A stretch of DNA of 64,000 bases from a virus (taxonomy: Duplodnaviria > Caudoviricetes): positions 123,795 through 187,794 of the IMG/VR virus record IMGVR_UViG_3300014204_000114. One strand, given 5' to 3'. Of this stretch, positions 16,075-31,402 are shown one piece after another (positions within the stretch are counted from its first letter, which is position 1; the number at the start of each line of letters is the position of its first letter). Both the position numbers and the translations under genes were made by a program. Under the pieces are notes generated by a model. The model saw only the letters and a program-made list of their open reading frames with translations. It did not search any database and was not told the DNA's origin.

Positions 16075-17004
16075 TTATTCATCATCGTCTTCATCTGTCG
16101 GAGGTTGGATAGCTTCGCCGGCATAACATAGCTTTCTATAGTCACAATAAGAGCATTGGAAGTCGCCTACTGTCTTGCCTTTATAGAAATTCTCCATTTT
16201 TGTTTTTGAAATGAGCCCTAATTGGAAGTATCTTTTAGCTTTATCTTCAGTATAGGCGTAATCATAATCTCTCGGAGGGACTACGTCTTCTTTTATGTAG
16301 CGGCCTAGTAAAGCGAACCTGTCATATATATCTTCCATCGAGAAGTTAGCAACCAGCTCATAAGTTATATTCTCTTCTCTTTTATAGAGGGGTAGTCTTA
16401 CCATTCTGCCTGTAATAGGATCAGGAGTAGGATCACTTATAGCTACGTCGTAAACTATTCTTTTCGCATTGCCGCGGTCTATATAAAATAACTTAAAAGC
16501 TTCGTATTCTTTGAAATGATCTCTGTATAACAAGGTTTGTAGAAGGTGCTGGTCTTTGGGCTGGCCTCTTCTCTTTACTGTTCCTATAATTGTCGCGTCG
16601 GCCATATAAGAGTAAATGGTTTTAACTTCTACTCCTATTAAGCCCCCGGTTTCTTTGTTTTTTAATACCCCGTCTATCTTTCCGGAGATATTATAATTCT
16701 CATCCCTAAATTCTACCTGCGTACCTGCCAACACTTCTCCGTATCTCCAGAACTCCATTAAGGAGTCTTCTATATCCTTGCCGAATTGGCAGATATACTC
16801 CCCTCTGGCGGACATTGGAAGGGCGTCCTGACCTTTATTGGTTAATCTATAGTACGACTTGCGTATGCAGCCGCCTATAACGCGGGTAGATCCATCGATT
16901 TCTCTGCTTATAACAGAGGCTTCGGAAGGATAGAAGTATCCTGATACTTTTCTACCTGAATTATGGGTAGTAATAAGTTTGTCAGTAAACTCTAAGAGGT
17001 TCAA
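16075..17004 (-). CDS. Cas4-like PD-(D/E)XK exonuclease
   Basis: GCIRKSYY, ISGKIDG, VEVKT, HLLQTLLY, CSYCDYRKLC. Confidence 0.85.
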   Translation of the reverse strand: MNLLEFTDKLITTHNSGRKVSGYFYPSEASVISREIDGSTRVIGGCIRKSYYRLTNKGQDALPMSARGEYICQFGKDIEDSLMEFWRYGEVLAGTQVEFRDENYNISGKIDGVLKNKETGGLIGVEVKTIYSYMADATIIGTVKRRGQPKDQHLLQTLLYRDHFKEYEAFKLFYIDRGNAKRIVYDVAISDPTPDPITGRMVRLPLYKREENITYELVANFSMEDIYDRFALLGRYIKEDVVPPRDYDYAYTEDKAKRYFQLGLISKTKMENFYKGKTVGDFQCSYCDYRKLCYAGEAIQPPTDEDDDE

Positions 17005-17210
17005 AGATTATTAACTCGATTCGTTAGTACCGTTAATTGTGATTGTATACTATTAACTGTCGTTTGAAGTGTTTCTAGTGACGACTGTAATAGGACCATT
17101 AATTCGTTTAACTGTTTCTTAGAGGCTAGTTGGTCTGTTTTTTCTTGTAACAAATTAACTTGCTCTTCAATGTTGACTATCCTCTCTGTTTCAGCGGCAG
17201 ACCACGTCAT
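17001..17210 (-). CDS. small coiled-coil protein
   Basis: GGAG RBS before ATG 17210 (MTWSAAETER); heptad pattern. Confidence 0.6.
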   Translation of the reverse strand: MTWSAAETERIVNIEEQVNLLQEKTDQLASKKQLNELMVLLQSSLETLQTTVNSIQSQLTVLTNRVNNL

Positions 17211-17512
17211 GGTTTTATCTCCTCCGGGATTGATTCCTTTTCGCCCTCGCAACCAAGTTGGGGAGCTTCGGTTTTATTTTTCGTGTCTACGTAGTGGTGA
17301 CCGACATTTGCCGCGAAATATCCGCCGAGCGCAGCCAGCACTATCGTTGAAAGTATACCCTCGCTGAGAGGAAGACTCCACTGAATCCCAAAGGATCCAA
17401 GAGTTTGGACCAATATCCATGTGGATATATAGAGTCCGTAACTAACCTGAATAACCCATTTGGATAGTTTATACTTTCTCGAATCTCCGTTTATCTCAGC
17501 ATAGGTCGCCAT
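17207..17512 (-). CDS. holin-like 2-TM protein
   Basis: SRKY..TM..TM ending GGYFAANV, charged C-terminus. Confidence 0.6.
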   Translation of the reverse strand: MATYAEINGDSRKYKLSKWVIQVSYGLYISTWILVQTLGSFGIQWSLPLSEGILSTIVLAALGGYFAANVGHHYVDTKNKTEAPQLGCEGEKESIPEEIKP

Positions 17513-17563: not shown

Positions 17564-17914
17564 TTATTGATGATTTCCATTCCCATTAAGTTTGCCTATT
17601 AACCTACTAAGTTCTTGGGCAACTTCGGATATGGATTTATTGATTTCTTGGATTGTTTTATTGAAGTTAGAGGCTATTTCGGATACTGCTTTTTCCGTAG
17701 TGAACAGTCTCATTTCTGTTTTTTCAACGTCGCTTTTTTGGACAAAGGTTTTGAATGCATCGACTTGACATTTTTGGCACTCCTCTTTCTGGTGCTGGGT
17801 TTGAGTCTCGACAACATCAATCCTGCGTCCAAAAGTTATTGCGAAAAATGTAGAGACTACACCCCCGACAAAACCTGCAATTGCAAATAGGATTTTTATG
17901 AGTTCGCCGTCCAT
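17564..17914 (-). CDS. TM plus coiled-coil protein (holin/XhlA-like)
   Basis: N-terminal TM ILFAIAGFVGGVVSTFFAITF, CxxC, long coiled coil. Confidence 0.6.
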   Translation of the reverse strand: MDGELIKILFAIAGFVGGVVSTFFAITFGRRIDVVETQTQHQKEECQKCQVDAFKTFVQKSDVEKTEMRLFTTEKAVSEIASNFNKTIQEINKSISEVAQELSRLIGKLNGNGNHQ

Positions 17915-17981: not shown

Positions 17982-18800
17982 TTAAAGTTTAAGTTGGTCA
18001 ATAGAGCGTGCTACAAAGAGTGACAATTCCCCATTAGATTCTTTATTTAGGAACTTCTCTATCATTTTTCTCACTCCACCTTCAGATTCGTATTGGTACG
18101 GCGCGCCATCTATAACTATATCTCTAACTGTTTTAAATTTATGTTGTCTGTACTCATCTAATGAGACTATAAAATCCCGATCTTCGAATTCAAAGGCATC
18201 TCTTATAGCTGATAGGGTTATCATTATATCTCCGACACTACTTTTATACATTATCCTAGACCATATCGGAACCTTCTTCGAATCTGGCAGTTCGTTATAA
18301 TAAAGCAGTTGTAAATCTTTTACATTTAAAGCGTGCAGCACACTAAAGATATGACTTCCAGACATGGTCAGTATGCTCTCTCTTCTTGTACGTCCGCACT
18401 GGAGAGATCTTATATGTATCTGATGATGCTTTTTATCATCTAAAACAGACCTTATTTTTAGAAGTTTATCGCTAACTGAGTTTAAGTAATCGATAGTCAA
18501 TGTCAGATTTTGTTCTCTTGCTAAGGTAACTAACTCTTCTGTTTGGAATAAAGTCTCAGTAAAAATCTTTTCGCAGAATACATTCTTACCGCCAAGAAGC
18601 ATCTTCTTTGTTATCTCGTAATGAGTAGGAACTGGCGTGGCTATAAAAACATGTGAGATGTTATTATCTTTGGCTACGTCATCTATTGTTACGGCAGACG
18701 AAGTATTAACCTGTATAACTTTCGAGGTATCATAAAAGCTAGACAGCTCTTTTAGTATAACAGAGCCCCAATGTTTATTGCCTATTAGCGCATAACTCAT
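17982..18800 (-). CDS. Gfo/Idh/MocA-family oxidoreductase
   Basis: HVFIATPVPTHY..GKNVFCEK; Rossmann start LIGNKHWG (GxGxxG degenerate). Confidence 0.8.
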   Translation of the reverse strand: MSYALIGNKHWGSVILKELSSFYDTSKVIQVNTSSAVTIDDVAKDNNISHVFIATPVPTHYEITKKMLLGGKNVFCEKIFTETLFQTEELVTLAREQNLTLTIDYLNSVSDKLLKIRSVLDDKKHHQIHIRSLQCGRTRRESILTMSGSHIFSVLHALNVKDLQLLYYNELPDSKKVPIWSRIMYKSSVGDIMITLSAIRDAFEFEDRDFIVSLDEYRQHKFKTVRDIVIDGAPYQYESEGGVRKMIEKFLNKESNGELSLFVARSIDQLKL

Positions 18801-18802
18801 AT

Positions 18803-19348
18803 CTATCTTTTCCAGAAGTTAGGATTTATATTATACTGCTCATCAGTAATATTAAATATAGATTTTATGATGTCTTTTGTTAGTAGGCCCCAATTAGGTT
18901 CTTGGTTCGTGACACTTAGACCACTCCTAGTCAGCAAGTTAGTCCTGACTATCTCGTATTTACTCCTTGACTTTAAGACTTTGCATGGGGAGCCAGCAGC
19001 AATACAGTCAGAAGGAATACTTTTAGTCACAACACTACCAGCGCCTATAATCGTTCTGTCTCCTATCTTAACTCCTGGCAAGATAATACATCCGAAACCT
19101 ATCCATACATCATGCCCTATATGCACCCCAATCCACCCATCATCCATCCCAGTAATAGGACAATGGCAACATATCCTAGTGTCCCCGCCTACAACCGTAA
19201 AATCGCCAATTCTTATATCTACTGGCTTCCCGGGCTTTGGAACTCTAGTATCAAGAAAGCCCCAAATTCTAGCCCCCTCACCAATTTTACAACCTAGCTT
19301 CACATACTTATCATTTTCAACTTGTGTTAAACTTATTATTTTAGCCAT
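18803..19348 (-). CDS. hexapeptide-repeat (LbH) O-acetyltransferase
   Basis: VHIGHDVWIG..ILPGVKIGDRTIIGAGSVVTKSIP..AAGSPCK. Confidence 0.9.
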   Translation of the reverse strand: MAKIISLTQVENDKYVKLGCKIGEGARIWGFLDTRVPKPGKPVDIRIGDFTVVGGDTRICCHCPITGMDDGWIGVHIGHDVWIGFGCIILPGVKIGDRTIIGAGSVVTKSIPSDCIAAGSPCKVLKSRSKYEIVRTNLLTRSGLSVTNQEPNWGLLTKDIIKSIFNITDEQYNINPNFWKR

Positions 19349-20516
19349 TTTGTAGCCTCTTGTAAGTTGTATTTATTTCTAGCCCTTGCCTATTACATCG
19401 CAACCCCTTAGAAAAACACATCTTTTCGCAATCAAAATTTGGGTTATAATTAGATAGTACTATCTTATTAAACTCTTCTACATCGTCAGTGATTTTCCCA
19501 AGTCTACATTGTTTGCCGGTTGGAGTCGAAACAGTAGAACACTTATATGCGTATCCGTCTGCCCCATATGTTATTTGATAATATCCATAAATACATTGTT
19601 TGAAATTAAACCTATCAACATCTGTAAATTCTGGTCCAGTATAAAAAATATAAGGTTTGTCGTTTTGGCTCAAGGACAAGTAAGGAGCTAGCATTTCTCG
19701 GTACTTTGTACCTAACGGAATCTCTATGCTCTCTTTGTATTGTCTTATCTTTTCGAACGATTGGTTATAGTTGCCGAACGGTATCGAAAACCTTAGAGAG
19801 TCTACCTGGTGGTCTTTTGCCCAATTAACTATCGAAGCAAAATCTTCAGTAGTTCCGCTATGTTTTGAGATAAGATAACACAGTCTAATCGCATGCGTCG
19901 GTTTGTACTTTTTTCTAGCCTCCAAACAAGCTTCTAAACTACTAAGAATCTCTTCGAACCAATGTATATTCTTAGTGCCTTTTGTTTTCCCCCATGAAGT
20001 TGGCAACCCTGCATCTAAACTAACTGACAGATAATCAGTTTCGTCAGTAGCTAATCTATTTAATTCTTCTGCGAAACCAAAATTATCTATCAGTGCCTTA
20101 AGAGCTACTCCGTTAGTATGTATGCCAAAATGGTTACCATACTTCTTTGTCATTGCTATATAAGCCAAGAAGTAGGGGTTCATCAAAGGCTCTGTATAAG
20201 CTCCGCCATATATATGATACGGAATTTTACCTTCTAGCTTATCTAACAAACTCAGACCTTTTATTTCCCAGCGGTCTAATGCGTGATCGAAATATTTCCC
20301 CCCACAATGTGAGCAGTGTAGTTGGCACTTACTTAAATGATTGCCTGGCAAATGGATTTCAAACTGGCGCGGATATATTAAATCGCCATTAAAAAATGCA
20401 TCAATACTGTTACTGGTAGAAGTTAAGTGCTCCTCTAGCTGTTTCCAATATAAATAATAATCAGGTCGTGGGTCTACTGAATTTTGTTCCATTTGACAAC
20501 ACCTTATAGGATTCAT
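19341..20516 (-). CDS. radical SAM enzyme with C-terminal Cys-rich (SPASM/twitch-like) domain
   Basis: CQLHCSHC, GG..EPLMNP, HTNG, SVSLDAG; C-terminal CIYG..YKC..C..C. Confidence 0.88.
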   Translation of the reverse strand: MNPIRCCQMEQNSVDPRPDYYLYWKQLEEHLTSTSNSIDAFFNGDLIYPRQFEIHLPGNHLSKCQLHCSHCGGKYFDHALDRWEIKGLSLLDKLEGKIPYHIYGGAYTEPLMNPYFLAYIAMTKKYGNHFGIHTNGVALKALIDNFGFAEELNRLATDETDYLSVSLDAGLPTSWGKTKGTKNIHWFEEILSSLEACLEARKKYKPTHAIRLCYLISKHSGTTEDFASIVNWAKDHQVDSLRFSIPFGNYNQSFEKIRQYKESIEIPLGTKYREMLAPYLSLSQNDKPYIFYTGPEFTDVDRFNFKQCIYGYYQITYGADGYAYKCSTVSTPTGKQCRLGKITDDVEEFNKIVLSNYNPNFDCEKMCFSKGLRCNRQGLEINTTYKRLQNG

Positions 20517-21291
20517 CTGTAGTTTCTAAAATACCTATCAAGTCTTCCATAGCTTTATATACTCTTATGTAATCTTTGCCGTGCTGCTCAAAGTGTTTCA
20601 TCCAATGAGTATTCATAGCTTTTAGTTCGTAAGCTCTATGAAAGAGTTTATACATAAGTCTATCTCTCCTTTCTTGGTACCCTGGAGAGTTTAGATAAGT
20701 CTTAAAGTTGTCATGTAACAAGTATATGTTACTATCCCCATATTTAAGTTTTAGTTGAGGGTCTATACCTTGATGTATCATCCCAACAATTGGGACTCTA
20801 TGCTTTCTATTAATGATTCTGCAAGCCTGCACAAATCTTTCTACGACGCCGTCTGCTGATCTTTTATTCAACATAAAAGTATTATAAACGCTACAAGACG
20901 TGTCTAATTTTTTTTGATCTTCGGGTATGTATATCCTAAAATCCGAATTTAGAGAAAATACCCAATCGTTTTTCGGGTCGCACATATTAATACCTAGCAT
21001 CTCTAATTCGCTGAAGCCATGCGTATATATCCATCCTAAAGGAATATGCACAACTTTGTACCCCTGATCTATACACCATTGAGTGGTACCGTCATTTGAA
21101 TCATTATCCAGTATGACTACCTCATTAACAAACGGGAGAATACTATTTATCATCTCTTTAAGATGCCCTAACTGGCTAGAAGTATGGCACAGCAACGACA
21201 TGCCTCCAAGATCTGCATACTGACATGGATACTTATAATTGAGTAAGTAAGGGTACAGATCAGTAATACTTTTATTAATTTCGTTAGGCAT
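20461..21291 (-). CDS. GT2 (GT-A) glycosyltransferase, SunS/beta-1,4-GT-like
   Basis: NEVVILDNDSNDGT, DWVFSLNSD (DxD position reads NSD), GMIHQ. Confidence 0.75.
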   Translation of the reverse strand: MPNEINKSITDLYPYLLNYKYPCQYADLGGMSLLCHTSSQLGHLKEMINSILPFVNEVVILDNDSNDGTTQWCIDQGYKVVHIPLGWIYTHGFSELEMLGINMCDPKNDWVFSLNSDFRIYIPEDQKKLDTSCSVYNTFMLNKRSADGVVERFVQACRIINRKHRVPIVGMIHQGIDPQLKLKYGDSNIYLLHDNFKTYLNSPGYQERRDRLMYKLFHRAYELKAMNTHWMKHFEQHGKDYIRVYKAMEDLIGILETTDESYKVLSNGTKFSRPTT

Positions 21292-21297
21292 TTTACA

Positions 21298-21675
21298 TTA
21301 AGCTTTTATGTATTTTATAATCTTTGCTGGATTACCGACTACGACAGCATTTGCGGCGACGTCCTTAGTTACTACAGACCCTGCCCCTACTACCGCATTC
21401 TCTCCTATAGTAACTCCCGGTAATATAATAGAGAAAGAGGCAACCCATACTCCATCTTTTATTACCACAGACTTATTATATATAGCTGTTTGTCTTTTAA
21501 AACCAAGCTCCATATAGTCGTGATACCCAGTCAAAATTTTAACTCCATGCCCAAAAAATACGTTATCTCCTATAAAAATCTCGCCATTAGTATCTAAAAA
21601 TGCATCATTTAAAATTACATTTTTACCTATATGTATTTTATCATAATTATTCAAATATACTATAGTCTTTTCCAT
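21298..21675 (-). CDS. hexapeptide-repeat (LbH) acyltransferase
   Basis: IGDNVFFGHGVKILTGYH..ILPGVTIGENAVVGAGSVVTKDV..VGNPAK. Confidence 0.9.
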   Translation of the reverse strand: MEKTIVYLNNYDKIHIGKNVILNDAFLDTNGEIFIGDNVFFGHGVKILTGYHDYMELGFKRQTAIYNKSVVIKDGVWVASFSIILPGVTIGENAVVGAGSVVTKDVAANAVVVGNPAKIIKYIKA

Positions 21676-22142
21676 TACTTGAACCCTATAGCTAGAAAAT
21701 TTACAAGATCAGTTTCTTTAGGTCCATCAGTTATTTCGATATTTTTAAATCCTATTTTCTCTAAAATTTGCTTCATTGTAGCTTTTGTGTAACACCATTT
21801 ATGGTAATTATATTCATACTCCTGTCCGCCATAAAGATGCTTAAAAAATAATTCAAGCTGATTTTTTAAATACAAATTGATATATACTCTATCAAAATCT
21901 ATTGTCCTTATAAACAGCTTCCCGTTAGGCGATAAGACTCTATACCATTCCTTAAGGAGAGGCTCCTGTTCGGCCTTAGAAAAATGCTCTATAATATCAC
22001 TGGCGTAAATCTCGTTTGCTGAACAGTCAGGATAGTCCAGCTCTCTAACATCCATACGTTTGATGCCAGGAATATCACGTATATCTATATTAACATATCC
22101 TTCTTTAAGGTCAAAACCGGAACCTAAATTCAGTTTCATCAC
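21675..22142 (-). CDS. class I SAM methyltransferase (Methyltransf_11-like)
   Basis: KLNLGSG..GYVNID, IYASDIIEH, EWYRVLSPNG. Confidence 0.88.
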   Translation of the reverse strand: MMKLNLGSGFDLKEGYVNIDIRDIPGIKRMDVRELDYPDCSANEIYASDIIEHFSKAEQEPLLKEWYRVLSPNGKLFIRTIDFDRVYINLYLKNQLELFFKHLYGGQEYEYNYHKWCYTKATMKQILEKIGFKNIEITDGPKETDLVNFLAIGFK

Positions 22143-22963
22143 TTTTCCCCAAATAAAACTATTCCCGATAAATGACCGAGTTTAGTTTCGCTAGTAGATT
22201 TCAATTGAAGATTTAATTTCGCGCCAGCAGTAATATATTCGTTTATAGAGGGTCTGAATTCATGCACTCCAAATTCGATTTCTTTGCTCATTAAATGCTT
22301 ATACTTGTTTATGTAGTCTTTTTCCGTTATGTCTTCTGGACGATAAGCTTCATTAAGAGCATAAAATCTCCCACCAGGTTTTAAAATTTTATAAACTTGA
22401 TTTGAAAGAAGCGATAAATCCGACGCGTGATGCAAAGCATCTAATGTAAAGATTATATCAATACTGTCTTCTTTAAAAGGGAGATTGAGCATATCAGAAA
22501 TGACACAATCAAAATCAATGTTAAATTTTTCTTTATAAGCAGCCGTCCTACCTAATCCCATAATCGGATCGTCATTACAATCTAAAGCTATAAGATTAGC
22601 GTTAGGATATTTTGTATTAAGTATATAAGCTTCAGCCCATCCTAGGCAAGCTCCAATATCAAGAACTACTTTACCATTTAGGTCTTCTACTCCTAGTAAA
22701 TAATCCAGATGTTCTTTCGGAGCCTTATAATATTTCTCAGGTAATTCAAATTGCCATTCGCCCGTAAAATACATCCCGAGATCTTTAAATACATTTATCC
22801 AAGCCGTCTTCTCTTTTTCGCACTCGTTATATGTTGGATTTTCTTGATCTAAAAGATAATAAAGTCCATTTTTGAATACGCCTTTATGCCCACAAGAACA
22901 GACAAGATCGTCTGATAATTTTGATTTACATTTAGGGCAGCATAATATGTCTCTAATATCCAT
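22139..22963 (-). CDS. class I SAM methyltransferase with N-terminal Trm112-like Zn finger
   Basis: ILCCPKC..CSCG; VLDIGACLGW; LPFKEDSID..ALHH; ILKPGG. Confidence 0.88.
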   Translation of the reverse strand: MDIRDILCCPKCKSKLSDDLVCSCGHKGVFKNGLYYLLDQENPTYNECEKEKTAWINVFKDLGMYFTGEWQFELPEKYYKAPKEHLDYLLGVEDLNGKVVLDIGACLGWAEAYILNTKYPNANLIALDCNDDPIMGLGRTAAYKEKFNIDFDCVISDMLNLPFKEDSIDIIFTLDALHHASDLSLLSNQVYKILKPGGRFYALNEAYRPEDITEKDYINKYKHLMSKEIEFGVHEFRPSINEYITAGAKLNLQLKSTSETKLGHLSGIVLFGEK

Positions 22964-23760
22964 TATTTTATAACCTTATCTACGTAGCTACTATAGAGCC
23001 AGTCAGGACGTACGTATTGTTCTTTCTGTGTTGCGTTTTTAGCTAATATAAAAATATACTGTCCATGATTTTTATATGAACTTCTCTCGTCTATATCTAT
23101 ATTCTCGCCATAATAAGGATGCACATCTCGCGTGAATATTTTTTCTATTTCAAAGCCAAGTTCGCCAAGAAGCTCTTTTAATTCCTCTACAGTATACTCT
23201 CTATTATGTCTGCCATAAGAGCCATTAGCAGAGTAAGGATCGTAGAAATTTTTACCATTTAAAACTTTTACCACGTTCTCGTGTCGTACAGCATTAGGAG
23301 TGGTGAGAATCATATATCCATTAGGTTTAATACTTTTCTTCACATTCAAGAGAGCTGCCATAGGGTCATTAGTCATATGTTCTAATATCTCACAGAAGAA
23401 AACAAGATCGAACTCTTTATCATATGGCGTCTCATTTTCTATATTAAAATGACTGAAAGCTAAAGGAATAACGCCAGCGCCATTTATCTCTTTTACTTCC
23501 TGTATTCCTCCTGCACCAAACGTAGATCCGAAATAATTAGCAAATCTCATATGTAGTTTAGTATGTCTGAGCAAGAGCAGGCTTAAGTAATAAGGGTTAG
23601 CTCCAAGTTCTAAAGCTTCGCCTTCCTGGATTGGAATTAAATCCATTGTATAAATCAAGCGCTTGAGGGACGTGTTCAAATATCCCATCATAGCATCTAC
23701 TGGGGCGTCGGCTACGCAAAATTTAGAAAGTAAATTTCTTACTTCTCTTTCATCCAACAT
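22963..23760 (-). CDS. class I SAM methyltransferase
   Basis: ALELGANPY, FDLVFFCEILEH, LTTPN, HNREYT. Confidence 0.88.
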   Translation of the reverse strand: MLDEREVRNLLSKFCVADAPVDAMMGYLNTSLKRLIYTMDLIPIQEGEALELGANPYYLSLLLLRHTKLHMRFANYFGSTFGAGGIQEVKEINGAGVIPLAFSHFNIENETPYDKEFDLVFFCEILEHMTNDPMAALLNVKKSIKPNGYMILTTPNAVRHENVVKVLNGKNFYDPYSANGSYGRHNREYTVEELKELLGELGFEIEKIFTRDVHPYYGENIDIDERSSYKNHGQYIFILAKNATQKEQYVRPDWLYSSYVDKVIK

Positions 23761-24880
23761 TTATAGCCTCCAGTCTGTTTTTCATAAGCTGGCCGACCGT
23801 AGTGAAGTTATAATTAGCTAACATGTCTTTACGAGCTTTTTCGCCCTTTTTTATTGCCTCTTCGCGGTTTTCGTATACATGCCTCATTAAGTCTCTGCAA
23901 TGTAATGTATGAGGTTGAGCCCAGTTTTGATTCCCATTATATAATCCGCACCAAGGCATATGAGCTACGGGGACTTCGTGGCAGTCTATTAAGTATGAAT
24001 TAGATTCATTCATAAAATCTAAGTGAGAGGAGTAATTTGTAGCTATACAAGGCTTACCCATTAGCATAGCCTCGGCATAAGGCATACCAAAACCTTCGGC
24101 CCGGGTAGGCAGAACAAAACAATCCCCAAGAGCATTAAGTCTTATCATATCTTCTTTAGGTAAAATATTACCTATAAAATATACAGGGGGATAATTCTGC
24201 ATATTCATATCTATCTTCATTCTTTGGATTTCGCTTTTTATGATATTCTGTTCGCTTTGGGAATCGTTGGAGCGGTACGACTTTATTATCAGAACTACTT
24301 TATCATTAGAAGTAAACGCTGCATAATAAGCTTTTAAAAGCCCCAAAAAATTCTTGCGTTCCGTCCATTGCCCTATAGCATAAAATTTATAAGCATCAGG
24401 GCCCAATCCATCTATCTTCAAAGGTTCTATTTTAGGATCGTATTCACTTATATCGAGAGGAGTAGGCATTACAGTTATAGGAATTTTTATGCCGTCTCTT
24501 TTATATGTCTCCGCGTTCCATTTGCACGAAGCCCAAATTTCCTGCATGAAAGGAGTGTTCTGTATCCAAAGTTCCGGAGTTTTACTTGTCTCCCAGTAAG
24601 GAAACGAAATATTATACTTAAGTTGTTCGTGGAACTTTTTGCAGTGTTCCATACCTACATGCATTATAACGAATTGATAAGGTATAGATCTATCTACTAA
24701 AGACTTAACTATCTCTCCGGTCTTACCGTAATCAGTTCTTGCTTTGTCCCAACTAACCACTTTAACAGTAACGTCAACTCCTGCTTTATGAAGCGCCGCG
24801 ATACAATTTCTATTAGCTTCTGCGTATCCAGAAGGATCAAATACGGGACCTATGTACTTTACACCTATTCTTTTAGTCAC
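23750..24880 (-). CDS. GT4 (GT-B) glycosyltransferase
   Basis: SGYAEA, WET, ERKN, PTRAEGFGMPYAEAMLMGKPCIAT. Confidence 0.92.
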   Translation of the reverse strand: MTKRIGVKYIGPVFDPSGYAEANRNCIAALHKAGVDVTVKVVSWDKARTDYGKTGEIVKSLVDRSIPYQFVIMHVGMEHCKKFHEQLKYNISFPYWETSKTPELWIQNTPFMQEIWASCKWNAETYKRDGIKIPITVMPTPLDISEYDPKIEPLKIDGLGPDAYKFYAIGQWTERKNFLGLLKAYYAAFTSNDKVVLIIKSYRSNDSQSEQNIIKSEIQRMKIDMNMQNYPPVYFIGNILPKEDMIRLNALGDCFVLPTRAEGFGMPYAEAMLMGKPCIATNYSSHLDFMNESNSYLIDCHEVPVAHMPWCGLYNGNQNWAQPHTLHCRDLMRHVYENREEAIKKGEKARKDMLANYNFTTVGQLMKNRLEAINVG

Positions 24881-26157
24881 TACATTACCTTTGCTTTGGT
24901 GATTAATTCTTGTTTTGATTTTAACGCGGCTTTAATAAAAACTTCTTTCCATTTCTCACAAACATTTTGCCAGCTGTTATCTATACAAAACTGTTTGGCG
25001 TTTTTCTTTACCTCTTCAATTTTAGGATCGTTACTCTTAACCATATTATATACCAGATCCATTTTCTCGACAAGGTCTTCTACGTTAGTTTGAGGTCTGA
25101 ATCCTGAAGAATCAACTACTGTCATATTAGAAAGAATATCACCTGACTTTACTAGGAAGCCGCGCTCGGAATTTTCTCCTAAGATCTCAGCGAGAGAAGT
25201 ATTATTGGGGCCTATATAGATACACTCGGACGACATGCATTCTGTGGTCGTCAAAGACCATCCTTCACCTAGGGTAGTACTCACAAATGCGTCCGCAGCA
25301 TTGTAAACCATATTGATATACGAGTCTGTGTAAGCAGGGTTCTTATAAATACCCATCGGCATATTTACGCACTTCTCGCTAAAGTTTAAATCCGCAGCAA
25401 TCTGAATAAGATTCAGTCCGTTATCTATTGGGTCCGCGTGAATATATAATATGTTATCCTGATGTTTTTCCCTAAAAGCCCTGTAGGCTAACAGAGTTCT
25501 CGCTATGTCTTTCCTTAAGCTGTTTCTATTTACATTAACAAATAAGAACTTATCTTCGGGGACTTTAAGTATGTCTCTTCGAAATACCTTTATGACATCC
25601 CTGTCAGGTATTTTATGGTAGATATTCCCATCTACTCCATGGTAGATATATGCAAGCTTTTCAAAGACTTGCGGCGGGAGAGTTTTCTTACACTCGTCCA
25701 TTGCAAACTTAGTATATGTTACGGGAAAGTCCGCGGCCTCTACCATTCCCATATGTTGTTTCTGCAGATGACAGTCAATAGGAAAGTAATAGACTAAAGA
25801 GAAGTGTTTTCTTTTATTCCCTGCGAGATTAGCCTGAATCTGAACTAACTTTTCAGCTACATGACTTACAGAGAACGTATCATTAATGATAAAAATAACA
25901 TCGTATTTTCCGGACTGAGCGAACTCAAGGAAGGCTTTAGAGCCATATGGATCTTTTGAGTCTTTTAAAATCGCAGGAACTATCTGATAAGGGAACTCTT
26001 CTCTGTTGTAAAAGTCGCCGAAAAAATTTATAGCGAACTGATCAAATTCAAAAAGTCCGGTTGAGTAAACATGCTTAAGAATATTACGAGCTACATTTCC
26101 AAACCCCGTTCTTGCTGTTACGGAGTCTGACCATACCAGTACATTGTACTTTTCCAT
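24880..26157 (-). CDS. GT4 (GT-B) glycosyltransferase
   Basis: TGFGNV, IYHGVD, NRNSLRKD, TTLGEGWSLTTTECM. Confidence 0.9.
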   Translation of the reverse strand: MEKYNVLVWSDSVTARTGFGNVARNILKHVYSTGLFEFDQFAINFFGDFYNREEFPYQIVPAILKDSKDPYGSKAFLEFAQSGKYDVIFIINDTFSVSHVAEKLVQIQANLAGNKRKHFSLVYYFPIDCHLQKQHMGMVEAADFPVTYTKFAMDECKKTLPPQVFEKLAYIYHGVDGNIYHKIPDRDVIKVFRRDILKVPEDKFLFVNVNRNSLRKDIARTLLAYRAFREKHQDNILYIHADPIDNGLNLIQIAADLNFSEKCVNMPMGIYKNPAYTDSYINMVYNAADAFVSTTLGEGWSLTTTECMSSECIYIGPNNTSLAEILGENSERGFLVKSGDILSNMTVVDSSGFRPQTNVEDLVEKMDLVYNMVKSNDPKIEEVKKNAKQFCIDNSWQNVCEKWKEVFIKAALKSKQELITKAKVM

Positions 26158-26167
26158 ATTACCCTTT

Positions 26168-27274
26168 CTAAAGTATGTCAGCTTTTATTAAATCTGTTGC
26201 TATTTGAAGTGTTTTAACTTCCTGTTTATAACCTACGCTTATCTTCCCCAATTTACCTAATATATTCTTAGTAAGGTCGAATATTGTATCTTCGTTGAAT
26301 GTTCTCATGCATGCCATTGCGCTTTGGCAATTACCGTACCAACAAGGATAACACGCTAATCTTTTCCCGCCTTCTATAGCTATAATGTTTTTATAGAGGC
26401 TCACCCTTGAAGGAGCATATGTAGGACCAAATATTGCCACCCCAGGCTTCTCCAGAGCCCCTGCAACGTGTAGAAGGCTTGAGTCTGGCACAATGACCAT
26501 ATGACACTCATTAATGACTGCAGCGACCTGTCTGATGCTGTAGTCCTTCATTTCCGTAACTCGATCAAAGCTCCATCTGGTTTTATACTTATTTGAATAG
26601 GTAAAGACTATAATAAACGCATTTGGATATTCATTAGTTATCTTAGCTATGGATCTTTTTATGACATTTATGTCAGGGTCTCTTCTGTCTGTAGAAGAGT
26701 TGGCTTGCACGCCTATTATTATTCTGGATGGACTTTTGGTTATGCCGATTTTTTCTATGAATTTCTTAGCCCACTTCTGCTCTTCGTCAGTTACTACATA
26801 GATAGGAAGATAAGAAGAAGGAGAGACTCCCGCATGCTCGGCAAATATTTCCATTCTTGAAGGAGGAGTAGATTTAGGCTGTTCTAGAGCAACACAAGGA
26901 CAAGTCATTCTGGAAAATATATCAAAGCCAGCTTCTCTTACAGCTTTTGAATTTTCTATCTTATCTATAAAAGGGTTATTTAAAAGGATGTCTTTAAGTG
27001 AGCCGTTTAAGTAAGAAGGGTCTACCGCGAATGTAAGGTGGCACCCGGGAAACATTTCCTTATATCCAAGACAAGTAGGAGTGATCATTAAGACGTCGCC
27101 TATACCGCCCCTATCTCTATGGACACATACAGATATTTTCTTCTTACCTTCGATAATGTCTTTTAGTCTGGCCGGTTGGAGATTTAATGAAACTGATTCA
27201 TTGCTGTCCCTATTAGGCTTCAGTACGCCCGGTTTGCTTGGTCTCACTATCCCACCTATCAATCTATTGTTCAT
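26168..27274 (-). CDS. GT9-family (ADP-heptose transferase-like) glycosyltransferase
   Basis: RGGIGDVLMITP, PDSSLLHVAGALEKPGVAIFGPT, CYPCW..C..C. Confidence 0.88.
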   Translation of the reverse strand: MNNRLIGGIVRPSKPGVLKPNRDSNESVSLNLQPARLKDIIEGKKKISVCVHRDRGGIGDVLMITPTCLGYKEMFPGCHLTFAVDPSYLNGSLKDILLNNPFIDKIENSKAVREAGFDIFSRMTCPCVALEQPKSTPPSRMEIFAEHAGVSPSSYLPIYVVTDEEQKWAKKFIEKIGITKSPSRIIIGVQANSSTDRRDPDINVIKRSIAKITNEYPNAFIIVFTYSNKYKTRWSFDRVTEMKDYSIRQVAAVINECHMVIVPDSSLLHVAGALEKPGVAIFGPTYAPSRVSLYKNIIAIEGGKRLACYPCWYGNCQSAMACMRTFNEDTIFDLTKNILGKLGKISVGYKQEVKTLQIATDLIKADIL

Positions 27275-28281
27275 ATGCTTGTTGCTATCGTGCAGCCTCT
27301 TGCTATTGTATAAATGCCGTTTTTAGTTCTTTCTACCGAAGTAGGATTGAACTGTAGAGGAGTACTCGTTAGTTGGTTTTTGAACACTTCTACAAAACCG
27401 TCTATTAGGGATGTCCCGCCAGCTATAACTACAGGCATATCTCTTAAATTATTAAGGTTCTTATTCTTTAGAGCGTTGACTGTATAAGCTACGGAGTACT
27501 CTATCATTCTTTTATAATAGCCAGCTATAGCTAGATGGAGATCGTCAGAATCGTTTGGTTTGAATATGTTAACGCCGCCTTTTTCTTTTTCCATCTGGAC
27601 TACACTGTCTTTAAGATTAGTGGCAATCGCGGCATTTCTATCAACCCAGTCTCCTGAACGAACTACTGAAAAAGTAAAGATTTCTTCGCCTTCAGCTACG
27701 ATAACTATATTAACCATACCGGCACCGTAATCAAAAACCATACCAGTAAGGTCGTTATCTAAGAGTTCAGAATAAGCAACTGCGGTAGCTTCATTTAAAG
27801 CCTCAGCATCATACCCTAAAGCTGTAAGCCAAGTCTTCATAAAGTCCTGGTGGTAGCCAACTGAGAAGTCTTCCGAGCTTTCGTCTACAGGTGCCGCCGG
27901 GATAGAATAAATAAGCTTCTCGCCTTTAGCGATAGGTTCCCCCACAACATCTTTTATAAGTGCTTTTAGAACAGGGAATGCATCCTTCTGACCCGGAGAA
28001 AGGACTCCACGTTTCATAGGTCTTTCCGCGGATTCATTCTTTTCTATAGCTTTTCCGATTGCATCTTCGCCAAGAACATAGAAGGTATTAGTTTCGGAGT
28101 CCTTATAAAACTTTTTCCCTGCAAGACCCTTCTCAATCATAGATCCAGCTAAAGGAGTAGAGGGTTTAATTTTAAAATATGCGTCGCGGATTAAAGAATA
28201 CTCAACCCCGTTTTCCTTTTCCCTTCCAGAGATAATAGTAGCGGTCCCAATATCAAGACCGCATCCTGCTTTTAACCCCAT
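27271..28281 (-). CDS. actin-like ATPase, volactin (VolA)-like
   Basis: Phosphate-1 GLDIGT, RPMKRGVL, YSIPAAPVD..YHQ, connect-1 LNEATAVAYSEL, phosphate-2 DYGAGMVN, RSGDWVD, adenosine AGGTS, ARG; start at ATG 28281 behind AAAGGT. Confidence 0.85.
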   Translation of the reverse strand: MGLKAGCGLDIGTATIISGREKENGVEYSLIRDAYFKIKPSTPLAGSMIEKGLAGKKFYKDSETNTFYVLGEDAIGKAIEKNESAERPMKRGVLSPGQKDAFPVLKALIKDVVGEPIAKGEKLIYSIPAAPVDESSEDFSVGYHQDFMKTWLTALGYDAEALNEATAVAYSELLDNDLTGMVFDYGAGMVNIVIVAEGEEIFTFSVVRSGDWVDRNAAIATNLKDSVVQMEKEKGGVNIFKPNDSDDLHLAIAGYYKRMIEYSVAYTVNALKNKNLNNLRDMPVVIAGGTSLIDGFVEVFKNQLTSTPLQFNPTSVERTKNGIYTIARGCTIATSI

Positions 28282-28282
28282 A

Positions 28283-28717
28283 CTATTTACCTTTCTTGAA
28301 TCTTCTGAGTTTTTCTTTTTGCTCTTCGATTGCGTCATCTGTTGATTCCTTTTCTACTTCGACTCCAATAAAACTAACTTTACTTTTAGCCCCAAGGACC
28401 ATAATTGTATCGTCGGTCTTCGGAACTTCTATTCCATCCTTAATCATATTTTGTATGTTACCAGAAACGCTTAAGGATTGCAAGTACTTTTTTATCTCTA
28501 TTTTAACTTCGGCGGCTATCTTAGAAGCAAGATCCTGGATTTCTTTATCTGACATATCAGATTTAACCCCGAATTCTTTATTTAAATTCGGGAGATTAAT
28601 CCTTACCTGTTGCATTTCTTCTCCTCTTCCAGGAATAAAACTCCTGACGAGCTTGCCTCCCTTAAGTTTGTAGTTAAACATTAAACCTTTTAATATTTTG
28701 CAAATTAAATCAAACAC
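28283..28717 (-). CDS. hypothetical protein, putative actin partner
   Basis: Stop lies 1 nt before the actin start; C-terminal amphipathic helix DDAIEEQKEKLRRFKK. Confidence 0.6.
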   Translation of the reverse strand: MFDLICKILKGLMFNYKLKGGKLVRSFIPGRGEEMQQVRINLPNLNKEFGVKSDMSDKEIQDLASKIAAEVKIEIKKYLQSLSVSGNIQNMIKDGIEVPKTDDTIMVLGAKSKVSFIGVEVEKESTDDAIEEQKEKLRRFKKGK

Positions 28718-29353: not shown

Positions 29354-30034
29354 TTATATATACTCTATTGTTAAAGACCTAAAATAAACATCAGCGGGAG
29401 CCGCTGCTACTGCTGTTCTTGTTAAAAATACTAAACGATTACCGGTGTAACTCCTTATTGATGTATGCCCTTCATAATCATGCCATGCTGAATCTTGTGG
29501 GTCATAACAACTAATACATCCATTTTGATGTTTCAATTTATAAGTTTGAATTCCAGGATTGGTTTTTGCTGTTCCGGTCCAAACAGCCACGCCAGTATCA
29601 CCTCCACTATTTGATACTAGCATTGCTTGAAATTGATGAACCACAGTACTATTATCTCTAACTTGTAAAAAATAACCACTATGATTAGAATCTGAAATAT
29701 CCCCAAAAAACAAATAAGCAGTTTCACTAACATCAATCTGAGCATGTTTTAATTGTATTGTCATTATAAAGTCGGCATATTTTAATGGTAACATAAAAGC
29801 GGAACAGTGATTTTTAACTGCAACTACTGTTGGTAGCCAACCCTCTCCTGCTACATAATTCCAAGTACCATCAATACTGTAAGCACTTGCTCCAATCATC
29901 CCTGCAACAGATAACGGAAATAGACTAGTTATATCATCATTAAAAACTAACCCCTTAGCTTTACAAGCAGCCTTTGTAGTGTCAGTATTAATAAAATCAA
30001 AAGATAAATTTTTAGGTTGTGGTATATACGACAT
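29354..30034 (-). CDS. putative receptor-binding beta-sandwich protein, paralogue 3
   Basis: Shares MSY..P.N.SFDF..TKA.C.A..FNDD and W.DYEGH with the two upstream genes. Confidence 0.6.
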   Translation of the reverse strand: MSYIPQPKNLSFDFINTDTTKAACKAKGLVFNDDITSLFPLSVAGMIGASAYSIDGTWNYVAGEGWLPTVVAVKNHCSAFMLPLKYADFIMTIQLKHAQIDVSETAYLFFGDISDSNHSGYFLQVRDNSTVVHQFQAMLVSNSGGDTGVAVWTGTAKTNPGIQTYKLKHQNGCISCYDPQDSAWHDYEGHTSIRSYTGNRLVFLTRTAVAAAPADVYFRSLTIEYI

Positions 30035-30717: not shown

Positions 30718-31402
30718 TGTTATTTATATACGTTATATCAATTTTTCTAATGTAAATAGGCGCTAATGCTTTAGCCGCAGTTTTGTAATTAAAGAACCCA
30801 ACATAATTATAAGTATAACTCCTACCTACGTCTTGATGTCCTTCATAATCGTTCCAGCTATCATTTTGATCATCATATATAGAAATGACGCCATTAACAG
30901 ATTTTACTTTTAAATACCTAACACCAGTTCCCGCTAACGCAGCTCCAGTGTATTTATTTGTTAAAGTATCATCTCCGTCATTTGTCCATAAATTCCATAC
31001 CAATTGAGGGGCACCTGCATCATCATTTTCATCATATGCCTGACCCCCAAAACCGATATGATTTGAATCAGTGATACAGCAAATACGCATATAGCCTCTT
31101 TCGTTAGCTGCACCACTTTCCTCATAATCAAATTCTAAATCTACTTGAAAATTTTGTTTCGTTAGCCTAATAATAAAATCTGCATTCTGACTCTCCCCTA
31201 TACTAGATGCAATCCAACCATTGCCAGCAGAATGAGTCCACGTACCACTCTGAACTGTAAACCCAGCTATACCAAAACTTGTAGGGTAGTAACCACCATC
31301 ATCATGAAAATATATCCCGGCGGCATTACATTTAGCCTTAGTGTTATACTGAGTGCCTGTAAAGTCAAAAGACTTATTGATTGGATTTGGATAATAACTC
31401 AT
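30707..31402 (-). CDS. putative receptor-binding beta-sandwich protein, paralogue 1
   Basis: Same motifs as paralogue 2; coupled to the upstream tail fibre gene. Confidence 0.6.
   Translation of the reverse strand: MSYYPNPINKSFDFTGTQYNTKAKCNAAGIYFHDDGGYYPTSFGIAGFTVQSGTWTHSAGNGWIASSIGESQNADFIIRLTKQNFQVDLEFDYEESGAANERGYMRICCITDSNHIGFGGQAYDENDDAGAPQLVWNLWTNDGDDTLTNKYTGAALAGTGVRYLKVKSVNGVISIYDDQNDSWNDYEGHQDVGRSYTYNYVGFFNYKTAAKALAPIYIRKIDITYINNNEL

What the first reader, a model, noticed from the sequence alone, without database searches (positions are those of the whole stretch)
17982..27274. All-soluble glycan building and decorating operon adjacent to tail genes
Seen: 11 overlapping or abutting genes in order GT9, GT4, GT4, MTase, Trm112-MTase, MTase, acyltransferase, GT2, radical SAM, acetyltransferase, Gfo/Idh/MocA. 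None has a TM segment or signal peptide, and there is no flippase, GtrAB or nucleotide-sugar synthesis gene. Established: serotype-conversion systems need membrane components, and DNA glycosylation usually needs a base hydroxymethylase, which is absent from this window. Inference: an initiating GT, extending GTs and methyl/acetyl/deoxy tailoring enzymes build an elaborate glycan on a cytoplasmic substrate, most likely the virion.
Basis: partly seen in the sequence, partly recalled or inferred. Interest (0 to 1): 0.78.

Follow-up and report, generated by a model that had tools for sequence, protein, structure and literature searches.

The report
Phage fibre-linked glycan gene cluster
An uncultured 188-kb phage carries eleven membrane-free enzymes that build and decorate sugars. 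In its relatives this gene slot begins right after the tail-fibre gene, so the phage probably sugar-coats its own particle, something shown by experiment only in mycobacteriophages.

Summary
Window 17982-27274 (minus strand) has 11 abutting or overlapping genes: GT9, two GT4 (phrog_2170), three class-I methyltransferases (one with a Zn-ribbon), two hexapeptide acyltransferases, a GT2-like GT-A enzyme, a SPASM-type radical SAM enzyme and a short Gfo/Idh/MocA protein. None has a membrane segment.

The 99%-complete genome gives no match for a thymidylate-synthase-type hydroxymethylase, TET/JBP, C5-methylase, sugar nucleotidyltransferase, SDR epimerase, DegT, Wzx, Wzy/WaaL, Bac_transf or GtrA.

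New here: the GT9 belongs to a phage-specific subfamily (466 representatives at E<=1e-30). In relatives the gene order is baseplate c4, c2, fibre c3, then GT9. The GT9 start lies -4 to +15 nt from the fibre stop in 9 of 11 loci. A lineage-specific island follows, with sulfo-, pyruvyl-, methyl- and acetyl-transferases, SDR, DegT and more GTs. The window's cluster is an expanded version of that slot.

Virion, probably fibre or baseplate, glycosylation is the best reading (about 0.45) but is unproven. Host-envelope and DNA targets remain rivals. The GT9 is not a TibC/BAHT member and not a WaaC/F/Q equivalog.

The scan noted this stretch again in an overlapping window. It also noted similar GT9-plus-fibre cassettes in other phage genomes. 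These are AI notes, not independent evidence.

The parts
26168..27274 (-). GT9-family glycosyltransferase, the proposed initiating enzyme. It belongs to a phage-specific subfamily. It has a basic, low-confidence N-terminal 45 aa and a C-terminal CxxCW-x4-C-x5-C motif (Cys 308/311/316/322).
   Evidence: PF01075. Fold Z 20-25 to 3tov, WaaF, TibC and WaaC. Profile hits 3tov and WaaC with the catalytic GD motif aligned. 466 representatives at E<=1e-30. ATGA overlap with the upstream actin-like gene.
24880..26157 (-). GT4 glycosyltransferase a (GT-B, E-x7-E intact)
   Evidence: PF00534. phrog_2170 full length. 37% identical to Tetrasphaera phage TJE1 orf14. The GT9-GT4a-GT4b order is conserved in L004/L005/L061/L063/L068.
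23750..24880 (-). GT4 glycosyltransferase b (paralogue, E-x7-E intact)
   Evidence: PF13692/PF00534. phrog_2170. An adjacent GT4a-like and GT4b-like pair also occurs in cultured Flavobacterium phage immuto.
22963..23760 (-). Class-I SAM methyltransferase 1
   Evidence: PF13489, 45.8 bits
22139..22963 (-). Zn-ribbon (Trm112-like pattern) plus class-I SAM methyltransferase 2
   Evidence: PF08241, 49.2 bits. Cys 8/9/12/22/24. Low GC3 of 0.255.
21675..22142 (-). Compact class-I SAM methyltransferase 3
   Evidence: PF08241/PF13489. Homologues lie next to GT9 in L018, L025, L061/L063 and L065.
21298..21675 (-). Hexapeptide (LbH) O-acetyltransferase, WcaF/maltose-acetyltransferase-like
   Evidence: PF00132. 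NF007797 E 6e-24, below the cut-off.
20461..21291 (-). GT2-like GT-A glycosyltransferase
   Evidence: Pfam weak, E 3e-3. ESM Atlas features 0.97 to phage GT2 clusters and structure TM 0.65 to GT2.
19341..20516 (-). Radical SAM enzyme with a SPASM/twitch-like C-terminal Cys cluster. The real start is probably Met9 at 20492. Proposed to tailor a sugar.
   Evidence: PF04055. Cys motifs. The Atlas record starts at residue 9. Weak best matches to DesII by sequence and fold. It recurs with Gfo in L001-L003.
18803..19348 (-). Hexapeptide (LbH) acetyltransferase 2
   Evidence: PF00132. A 37% homologue directly follows the radical SAM gene in L003.
17982..18800 (-). Short Gfo/Idh/MocA oxidoreductase (sugar dehydrogenase or ketoreductase type)
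   Evidence: PF01408, 47.3 bits. PDB relatives are sugar oxidoreductases. Homologues lie near the radical SAM gene in L001-L003 and after GT9 in L066/L073.
27271..28338 (-). Volactin-family actin-like ATPase, coupled to GT9. It is a neighbour and its role in the system is unknown.
   Evidence: PF25216 E 1e-57. It lies directly upstream of GT9 in L005, L059, L061/L063 and L068, and near GT9 in L035 and L045.
34596..37229 (-). Tail-fibre protein of the 'c3' family, a candidate acceptor (inference)
   Evidence: PHROG tail fibre. In relatives the GT9 gene starts -4 to +15 nt after this gene's stop.
31399..33813 (-). Second tail-fibre protein, which shares repeat modules with the c3 fibre. Candidate acceptor (inference).
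   Evidence: PHROG tail fibre E 3.5e-41. Shared segments.
17001..17252 (-). Small conserved 'c6' protein that marks the far end of the variable slot in relatives
   Evidence: Clustering and BLAST

Best explanation
The cluster is a cytoplasmic, phage-encoded glycosylation system that decorates the phage's own virion proteins. The most likely targets are the tail fibres or outer baseplate proteins encoded just upstream.

Proposed steps (all inferred):
1. The GT9 enzyme puts the first sugar directly on the folded or folding protein. From its fold and conserved donor-site motifs, the donor is an ADP-heptose-like sugar taken from the host.
2. The two GT4 enzymes and the GT2-like enzyme extend the chain.
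3. The three methyltransferases and two acetyltransferases cap hydroxyl or amino groups.
4. The radical SAM and Gfo/Idh/MocA pair reshapes one sugar by oxidation, deoxygenation or epimerisation, either on the nucleotide sugar or on the chain.

Shown: the gene content, the lack of membrane segments, the conserved slot after the fibre gene, and the lineage-specific turnover of tailoring genes.

Inferred: the acceptor, the donor sugars and the order of steps.
For: 1. Eleven intact soluble enzymes sit in one tightly packed co-directional block.
2. The GT9 subfamily is phage-specific. There are 51 IMG/VR loci and 466 representatives at E<=1e-30. In prokaryote genomes the only good hits are a 1.8-kb contig and a 111.8-kb contig identical in length to an IMG/VR phage record.
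3. Synteny is conserved: c4, c2, c3 fibre, then GT9. The GT9 start lies -4 to +15 nt from the fibre stop in 9 of 11 loci.
4. Loci seeded on the baseplate protein c2, independently of GT9, carry GT9 within 10 kb downstream in 23 of 52 cases, and five more carry it elsewhere in the record.
5. The genes after GT9 differ by lineage. They include sulfotransferase, a sulfotransferase-methyltransferase fusion, a pyruvyl-transferase-methyltransferase fusion, CmcI-type methyltransferases, SDR/GMD, DegT, GT25, extra GT9 and a HAD phosphatase. This pattern is expected for an exposed glycan under diversifying selection.
6. The middle tailoring genes of the window have lower GC3 (0.25-0.31 against 0.36 +/- 0.055 for the genome), which fits recent exchange.
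7. The genome gives no match for any tested source of hydroxymethyl bases or for lipid-carrier pathway proteins.
8. GT4a homologues in cultured phages lie inside or beside head-gene modules together with methyltransferases: S-CBS4 between the portal and capsid genes, TJE1 just before the terminase.
9. Precedent: mycobacteriophage virions are glycosylated by phage glycosyltransferases (Freeman 2023, as described in PMC12363180). Chlorovirus capsid glycans are built by soluble viral GT and methyltransferase enzymes (PMC9614988 and PMC7826918).
Against: - No acceptor was identified. Fibres of relatives with and without GT9 do not differ in Ser+Thr or Ser-Gly content.
- The slot is a module junction where accessory genes commonly collect.
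- In lineage L006-L011/L072 the GT9 genes run with the replication genes and converge on the fibre genes.
- The characterised relatives of GT9 act mostly on LPS.
- Several complete distant relatives with the same baseplate proteins lack GT9, so it is not essential for this virion type.
- The GT9 N-terminus is a basic tail, which could equally bind membrane or nucleic acid.
- No cultured relative and no chemistry exist.
Confidence: 0.45

Rival explanations
1. Host-envelope remodelling. The soluble enzymes work at the cytoplasmic face of the inner membrane on host lipid-linked intermediates (lipid A-core, Und-PP-linked O-units or capsule units). Host flippases and ligases export the altered glycan. 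The altered surface would block superinfection or stop progeny from sticking to debris.
For: The closest solved and named GT9 relatives are LPS heptosyltransferases. From general knowledge, WaaC, WaaF and WaaG-type enzymes also lack membrane segments. The GT9 has a basic N-terminal tail. The tailoring enzyme types (WcaF-like acetyltransferase, pyruvyl transferase, sulfotransferase, GT25) are those of polysaccharide loci. Linkage to receptor-binding fibre genes would also make sense for receptor masking. The literature reads the GT and LPS genes of large cyanophages this way (PMC12801897).
Against: The genome gives no match for a priming transferase, flippase, polymerase/ligase or GtrA. The GT9 scores 31-37 bits against equivalog cut-offs of 134-185, and its subfamily is essentially absent from bacterial genomes. 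The carriers are 100-200-kb phages with their own replication genes, and the one related record classed as a provirus lacks GT9. Envelope turnover in a dying cell is slow (general knowledge). In many relatives a single GT9 is translationally coupled to the fibre gene.
Confidence: 0.2
2. DNA hypermodification. The GT-B enzymes glycosylate bases in phage DNA and the tailoring enzymes decorate that glycan, protecting the genome from restriction. This would resemble the TET- or ThyS-dependent DNA glycans of Pyle et al.
For: Phage GT-B enzymes resembling BshA and MshA install hexose, heptose and Kdo on 5hmC (bioRxiv 10.1101/2023.12.21.572611). The cluster borders a PD-(D/E)XK nuclease and a primase-helicase. 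In L006-L011 it is co-directional with them. In Flavobacterium phage immuto a similar cluster also follows a PD-(D/E)XK nuclease.
Against: The 99%-complete genome gives no match for the thymidylate-synthase family, TET/JBP or C5-methylases. A three- to four-GT chain with methyl and acetyl caps is more elaborate than most DNA glycans reported there. In the marine lineage GT9 is the last gene of the structural operon and is coupled to the fibre gene.
Confidence: 0.07
3. Another cytoplasmic target. The enzymes might glycosylate a non-virion protein, for example a host factor or the adjacent actin-like filament protein. Alternatively they might make a free oligosaccharide, glycolipid or small glycosylated metabolite.
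For: An actin-like gene lies directly upstream of GT9 in at least six related contigs. The radical SAM's weak best matches, DesII and BlsE, are enzymes of sugar-containing natural products.
Against: An 11-enzyme decorated glycan is excessive for inactivating a host protein. The actin-like gene is absent from most GT9 loci. No carrier, export or scaffold genes for a metabolite were seen.
Confidence: 0.1

Closest known systems
Mycobacteriophage virion glycosylation (Che8 gp110, Corndog gp38, Myrna; Freeman et al. 2023, described in PMC12363180)
   Same: Soluble phage-encoded glycosyltransferases are kept in phage genomes and glycosylate capsid and other virion proteins (PMC12363180). The proposed logic is the same: the phage decorates its own particle in the cytoplasm.
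   Different: No detectable homology was seen. The GT4a search hit no mycobacteriophage, and GT4b's listed hits are Streptomyces, Rhodococcus and Arthrobacter phages at 22-26% identity. Here a GT9 leads the cluster. The cassette is larger, with a radical SAM enzyme, Gfo and two acetyltransferases. The slot follows the tail-fibre gene, and the host was not identified. No chemistry exists.
Bacterial autotransporter heptosyltransferases TibC/Aah (BAHT; PDB 4RAP/4RB4; PMC4358343)
   Same: GT9-type GT-B fold (Z 22.3). Cytoplasmic O-glycosylation of a beta-helical protein before export is the best mechanistic analogy. A four-Cys motif sits in the C-lobe.
   Different: The phage enzyme has no room for the 97-residue N-terminal beta-barrel, because its Rossmann fold starts at about residue 48. 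The Cys spacing is x2/x4/x5, against x2/x15/x11 in TibC. No TibC or BAHT sequence match appeared with the single sequence, the family profile or NCBIfam. It is closer in sequence to 3tov and WaaC.
LPS inner-core heptosyltransferases WaaC/WaaF/WaaQ (GT9)
   Same: Same fold. The catalytic GD motif, the K/R-x-W motif and the D-S/T-G-x-x-H donor motif align.
   Different: Scores are 31-37 bits against equivalog cut-offs of 134-185. The phage subfamily often occurs as 2-4 fused GT9 modules and is encoded after fibre genes, not in LPS loci.
Phage DNA glycan hypermodification clusters (Pyle et al., bioRxiv 10.1101/2023.12.21.572611)
   Same: Phage gene clusters with GT-A and GT-B enzymes plus sugar-modifying enzymes. 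Heptose and Kdo are among the sugars used.
   Different: Those clusters depend on a C5-methylase plus TET-type dioxygenase, or on a ThyS-type hydroxymethylase. The searches found none of these in this genome.
Chlorovirus PBCV-1 capsid glycosylation (A064R, A111/114R; PMC9614988, PMC7826918)
   Same: Virus-encoded multi-GT and methyltransferase enzymes build an atypical glycan on the major capsid protein. That these enzymes are soluble and the glycan methylated is from general knowledge; I saw only the titles and abstract starts of these papers.
   Different: Eukaryotic virus, N-linked glycans, unrelated enzymes. It is an analogy only.
Glycan clusters of cultured large phages (Flavobacterium phage vB_FspM_immuto NC_055915; cyanomyoviruses such as S-SCSM2R, PMC12801897)
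   Same: The immuto phage has an adjacent GT4a-like and GT4b-like pair followed by GT2, aminotransferases, a methyltransferase, an LbH 'pilin glycosylation protein', an epimerase and further GTs, next to a PD-(D/E)XK nuclease. Function is untested there too.
   Different: The immuto phage has no GT9 and no detectable similarity in virion genes. Its cluster carries sugar-nucleotide enzymes that the window lacks.

Membership tests
Glycosyltransferase family 9 (Pfam PF01075, GT-B) | GT9-type two-Rossmann fold with an N-terminal catalytic GD motif and a C-terminal D-S/T-G-x-x-H donor motif | tested here: met
   PF01075 39.5 bits against a cut-off of 22. Z 20-25 to 3tov, WaaF, TibC and WaaC, against 15 or less for other GT-B folds. 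Motifs aligned to 3tov and WaaC. G56-D60, D264, S265 and H269 are invariant in the family.
LPS heptosyltransferases I/II/III (TIGR02193, TIGR02195, TIGR02201) | Score above the curated equivalog cut-off | tested here: not met
   31.0, 37.3 and 33.4 bits against cut-offs of 185.3, 134.6 and 170.2. Only the C-terminal 40-90 residues match.
BAHT (TibC/Aah protein heptosyltransferases) | N-terminal beta-barrel domain of about 97 residues before the catalytic domain (PMC4358343) | tested here: not met
   Only about 47 residues, mostly low-confidence and basic, precede the first Rossmann strand at 48-52.
BAHT (TibC/Aah protein heptosyltransferases) | Iron-finger: four Cys (TibC 339, 342, 358, 370) inserted in the C-lobe | tested here: inconclusive
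   Four nearly invariant Cys (308, 311, 316, 322) sit at a comparable place but with much shorter spacing. This segment of the model has pLDDT below 50.
BAHT (TibC/Aah protein heptosyltransferases) | Sequence membership (match to TibC or to a BAHT family model) | tested here: not met
   No TibC chain at E<=1 with either the single sequence or the family profile. No BAHT model among the NCBIfam hits at E<=0.01.
BAHT (TibC/Aah protein heptosyltransferases) | Dodecameric ring and a beta-hairpin thumb | not testable with these tools
Phage DNA glycan hypermodification (5hmC/5hmU-dependent) | A source of hydroxymethyl-pyrimidine: a ThyS-type hydroxymethylase, or a C5-methylase plus TET/5mYOX | tested here: not met
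   PF00303, PF12851 and PF00145 gave no match in a six-frame search of the 187,794-bp, 99%-complete genome. PF00303 and PF00145 were found in 10 of 14 control genomes; the PF12851 control had no match above its cut-off, so that negative is weaker.
Gtr-type serotype conversion (GtrA/GtrB/Gtr-type) | Membrane flippase GtrA and membrane-bound transferases | tested here: not met
   PF04138 gave no match in the genome. No hydrophobic segment in any of the 11 proteins.
Wzx/Wzy-type O-antigen or capsule locus | Priming phosphoglycosyl transferase, flippase, polymerase or ligase | tested here: not met
   PF02397, PF01943 and PF04932 gave no match in the genome. Host enzymes could substitute, so the mechanism is not excluded.
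Phage virion glycosylation cassettes (mycobacteriophage type) | Soluble phage GTs, with or without methyltransferases, encoded with structural genes | tested here: met
   Gene content and position. Coupling of GT9 to the fibre gene in relatives.
Phage virion glycosylation cassettes (mycobacteriophage type) | Glycans demonstrated on virion proteins | not testable with these tools
   This needs glycoproteomics on particles.
GT4 (PF00534; phrog_2170) | GT-B fold with a C-terminal E-x7-E motif | tested here: met
   PF00534/PF13692 above the cut-offs. phrog_2170 full length, E 1e-27 and 1e-29. E-x7-E read in both sequences.
DesII (TIGR04426, TDP-sugar radical SAM lyase/dehydrogenase) | Score above the equivalog cut-off | tested here: not met
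   18.1 bits against a cut-off of 450. DesII is only the weak best PDB match, from a model with pLDDT 56.

The most novel reading that the evidence does not exclude
A whole clade of uncultured 100-200-kb phages keeps a phage-specific GT9 enzyme, often fused in 2-4 copies, right after its tail-fibre gene. The enzyme directly glycosylates fibre or baseplate proteins. A rapidly exchanged island of sulfo-, pyruvyl-, methyl- and acetyl-transferases, radical SAM enzymes and extra GTs then gives each lineage its own 'virion O-antigen'. The window's 11-gene cluster would be one of the most elaborate versions, and its radical SAM/Gfo pair would make an undescribed sugar.
Probability: 0.35. Interest if true: 0.75.

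Novelty: new variant of a known kind. Interest (0 to 1): 0.6.

Why it matters
Glycosylation of phage particles has been shown chemically only for mycobacteriophages. For phages of other hosts the many annotated glycosyltransferase genes are usually assigned by default to DNA modification or host-surface change.

This cluster and its relatives give a concrete, testable case. A conserved initiating enzyme is tied to the tail-fibre gene, and a fast-evolving decoration toolkit follows it.

If the target is the fibre, virion glycans would become a general variable in phage host range, stability and recognition. The family would also supply new soluble protein-glycosylating and sugar-tailoring enzymes, including GT9 fusions and a DesII-like radical SAM enzyme.

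If the target is the host envelope or DNA, that would be equally informative, because none of the known required partner genes were found.

Tried and rejected
- Near-identity DNA search of the cluster in GenBank phages found nothing. The baseplate protein c2 has no relative among cultured phages, so no experimental relative exists.
I reconstructed context with the search for related loci and my own simple ORF calling and clustering. The cluster labels in relatives rest on BLAST to a few Pfam-annotated representatives.
- The promoter and terminator scan gave no more sites than shuffles, so it gives no operon boundaries.
- Acceptor search by composition failed. Ser+Thr and Ser-Gly counts of the fibre gene do not differ between relatives with and without GT9.
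- An apparent association of GT9 with 'c3-type' fibres (Fisher p = 0.005) was rejected. All fibres share the same N-terminal 200-280 residues, and the classes follow phylogeny.
- BAHT membership was rejected. Fold scores do not separate TibC from WaaC and WaaF.
- The radical SAM model had pLDDT 55.8. Its DesII, BlsE and SkfB matches (TM below 0.4) are leads only.
- PADLOC gave only generic methyltransferase and viperin-like radical SAM similarities, so there is no defence-system assignment.
- The prokaryote genome scan found only distant ordinary GT9 (24% identity or less), apart from two likely phage contigs. It gave no host clue beyond one contig binned with a Magnetovibrio MAG.
- Searches failed because I gave wrong coordinates.

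Full report
WHAT IS THERE

The window is the last 64 kb of a 187,794-bp IMG/VR phage record that CheckV rates 99% complete. From 64000 down to about 8000, nearly all genes are on the minus strand. The order is: baseplate and tail-fibre genes, three tandem 226-231-aa paralogues, two small genes, a Volactin-family actin-like gene (PF25216, E 1e-57), the 11 genes of the finding, three small genes, a PD-(D/E)XK nuclease and a primase-helicase.

They abut or overlap, with gaps of -56 to +10 nt.

The family calls hold, with two qualifications:
- The 'GT2' is below Pfam's threshold. It is supported by the ESM Atlas instead (features 0.97 to phage GT2 clusters, structure TM 0.65).
- 'Trm112' is only a Cys-ribbon pattern at the N-terminus of the second methyltransferase.

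Catalytic motifs are intact: E-x7-E in both GT4 enzymes, CX3CX2C plus six C-terminal Cys in the radical SAM enzyme, and motif I in all three methyltransferases. No protein has a hydrophobic stretch that could span a membrane.

WHAT THE GENOME LACKS

Six-frame family searches of the whole genome gave no match for any of these:
- the thymidylate-synthase/hydroxymethylase family, TET/JBP, or C5 DNA methylases;
- sugar nucleotidyltransferases, SDR epimerases/dehydratases, or DegT aminotransferases;
- Wzy/WaaL, priming phosphoglycosyl transferases, Wzx or GtrA.

The two GT4 genes are the only ones of that family in the genome. The phage must therefore draw activated sugars from its host. It supplies neither a known DNA-glycosylation precursor pathway nor any lipid-carrier machinery.

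THE GT9 ENZYME

A model built from ten family members (pLDDT 72) is a clear GT9-type GT-B fold. Scores are 3tov Z 25.5, WaaF 23.6, TibC 22.3 and WaaC 20.8, against 15 or less for other GT-B enzymes. The family profile aligns the catalytic GD motif and the donor-site motifs with 3tov and WaaC.

It is not an LPS heptosyltransferase equivalog (31-37 bits against cut-offs of 134-185).

It is not a member of the TibC/Aah family either:
- There is no room for TibC's 97-residue N-terminal barrel.
- No sequence match to TibC appeared.
- The four-Cys motif has x2/x4/x5 spacing, against x2/x15/x11 in TibC.

It belongs to a sizeable phage-specific subfamily. That subfamily has 466 representatives (50% identity clusters) at E<=1e-30, and many carry two to four fused GT9 modules. 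There are 51 IMG/VR loci. It is essentially absent from prokaryote genomes apart from two likely phage contigs.

THE CONSERVED SLOT

I clustered the ORFs of the GT9 loci. In a large group of relatives the order is baseplate proteins c4 and c2, a fibre gene c3 of very variable length (423-2918 aa), then GT9. The GT9 start lies -4 to +15 nt from the fibre stop in 9 of 11 loci. A short variable stretch follows, then a conserved 74-aa gene, c6.

The window has homologues of c2 (37238-39469), c3 (34596-37229) and c6 (17001-17252). Its 11-gene cluster, together with the extra fibre genes and the actin-like gene, fills the same slot.

Loci seeded on c2, independently of GT9, show GT9 within 10 kb downstream in 23 of 52 cases. 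Five more have it elsewhere in the record. All complete close relatives have it, while four complete distant ones lack it.

The window's nearest relatives share the order actin, GT9, GT4a, GT4b, followed by different tailoring genes:
- CmcI-type methyltransferases, SDR/GDP-mannose-dehydratase-like enzymes and a GT2 in L004/L005;
- an MT3-like methyltransferase and a GMD-like enzyme in L061/L063/L065.

Elsewhere the slot holds:
- a sulfotransferase, a sulfotransferase-methyltransferase fusion, a pyruvyl-transferase-methyltransferase fusion, a GT25-like gene and further GT9 genes;
- a small HAD phosphatase related to a 'capsule biosynthesis protein', present only where GT9 is present.

The radical SAM gene recurs with the Gfo gene in three other phage contigs (L001-L003). 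In L003 the pair sits in a cluster with DegT, GT2, sulfotransferase, LbH and GT4 genes. In the window the middle tailoring genes have distinctly lower GC3 than the genome.

The picture is a conserved initiating enzyme with a fast-turning-over decoration toolkit.

WHAT IT MOST LIKELY DOES

The best-supported reading is cytoplasmic glycosylation of the phage's own structural proteins, with the fibres or outer baseplate as first candidates. The grounds are:
- tight and often translational linkage of GT9 to the fibre gene;
- the phage-specific nature of the GT9 subfamily;
- the failure to find any prerequisite for DNA glycans;
- the failure to find any lipid-carrier gene;
- the hypervariable decoration genes;
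- GT4a homologues placed among or beside head genes, with methyltransferases, in cultured phages S-CBS4 and TJE1;
- experimental precedent in mycobacteriophages (PMC12363180) and chloroviruses.

The step order is inference from enzyme families: GT9 first, GT4/GT2 extension, methyl and acetyl capping, and radical SAM/Gfo reshaping of one sugar. The radical SAM's only leads are weak matches to the TDP-sugar enzyme DesII.

WHY CONFIDENCE IS ONLY ABOUT 0.45

- No acceptor signature was found.
- The slot is a module junction between fibre and replication genes.
- In lineage L006-L011 the GT9 genes are co-directional with the replication genes and convergent to the fibre genes.
- The characterised relatives of GT9 act on LPS.
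- Host-envelope remodelling (about 0.2), another cytoplasmic target or product (about 0.1) and DNA glycosylation (about 0.07; Pyle et al.) remain open.

COMPARISON WITH WHAT IS KNOWN

The cluster works most like the mycobacteriophage and chlorovirus particle-glycosylation systems. For the first step the nearest analogy is the TibC/Aah protein heptosyltransferases. It is a sequence member of none of these.

Large phages with unexplained glycan clusters are already on record, for example cyanomyoviruses (PMC12801897) and the cultured Flavobacterium phage immuto. The immuto cluster shares the GT4a/GT4b pair.

The new points are:
- leadership by a phage-specific GT9 subfamily;
- conserved coupling of that GT9 to the fibre gene;
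- the breadth of decoration chemistry, including a radical SAM enzyme.

I rate this a new variant of a known kind.

The same stretch was noted again in an overlapping window of this scan. Similar GT9-plus-fibre cassettes were noted in other phage genomes. Those are AI notes and I did not use them as evidence.

Noticed in passing
window 27271-28338 (-); L005 8906-9946; L059, L061/L063, L068; L035 11180-12190; L045 13791-14792: A Volactin-family actin-like ATPase gene sits directly upstream of GT9 (ATGA overlap in the window) in at least six related contigs, and within 4 kb of GT9 in two divergent ones. The two small genes before it (p109, p144) have no detectable homologues.
   Followed up: partly
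L012 13260-13733 and homologues in L013, L016, L019, L020, L022, L024, L026 (alignment A5): A small HAD phosphatase (DxDxT, T, GKP and DD motifs) related to PDB 1xpj and 9iqw ('capsule biosynthesis protein') occurs after GT9 in marine relatives. It is missing from sibling loci that lack GT9.
   Followed up: partly
Proteins P0069-P0217; L008 10001-11998; L013 9839-11842: Many members of the phage GT9 subfamily are single polypeptides with 2-4 GT9 modules (650-1300 aa), or GT9 fused to a GT4-like domain.
   Followed up: no
L004 14595-16559: A 654-aa ORF inside the glycan island of a close relative matches an intein splicing domain (PF14890, E 1e-9). The host protein was not identified.
   Followed up: no
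window 31399-33813 and 34596-37229; 29354-31402: The 804-aa and 877-aa fibre proteins share several repeated segments (40-60% identity). They are followed by three tandem paralogues of 226-231 aa (33-51% identity).
   Followed up: partly
window 17564-17914 (-): A 116-aa protein just after the cluster has a strong N-terminal hydrophobic segment (KD 2.31) and weak coiled-coil-type matches. It is the only membrane-type protein near the cluster.
   Followed up: no
NC_055915.1 48008-59988 (locus L191): Cultured Flavobacterium phage vB_FspM_immuto has a 12-gene glycan cluster: a GT4a/GT4b-like pair, GT2, two aminotransferases, a methyltransferase, a mannosyltransferase, an LbH 'pilin glycosylation protein', an epimerase and another GT. 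It lies right after a PD-(D/E)XK nuclease. This gives a tractable system for testing what such clusters modify.
   Followed up: partly
L016 / L110 (111,807-bp contig): A contig of the same length (111,807 bp) is listed both as an IMG/VR virus and as a contig of a Magnetovibrio MAG. It is probably the same phage contig binned into a bacterial genome, or a weak host hint.
   Followed up: no
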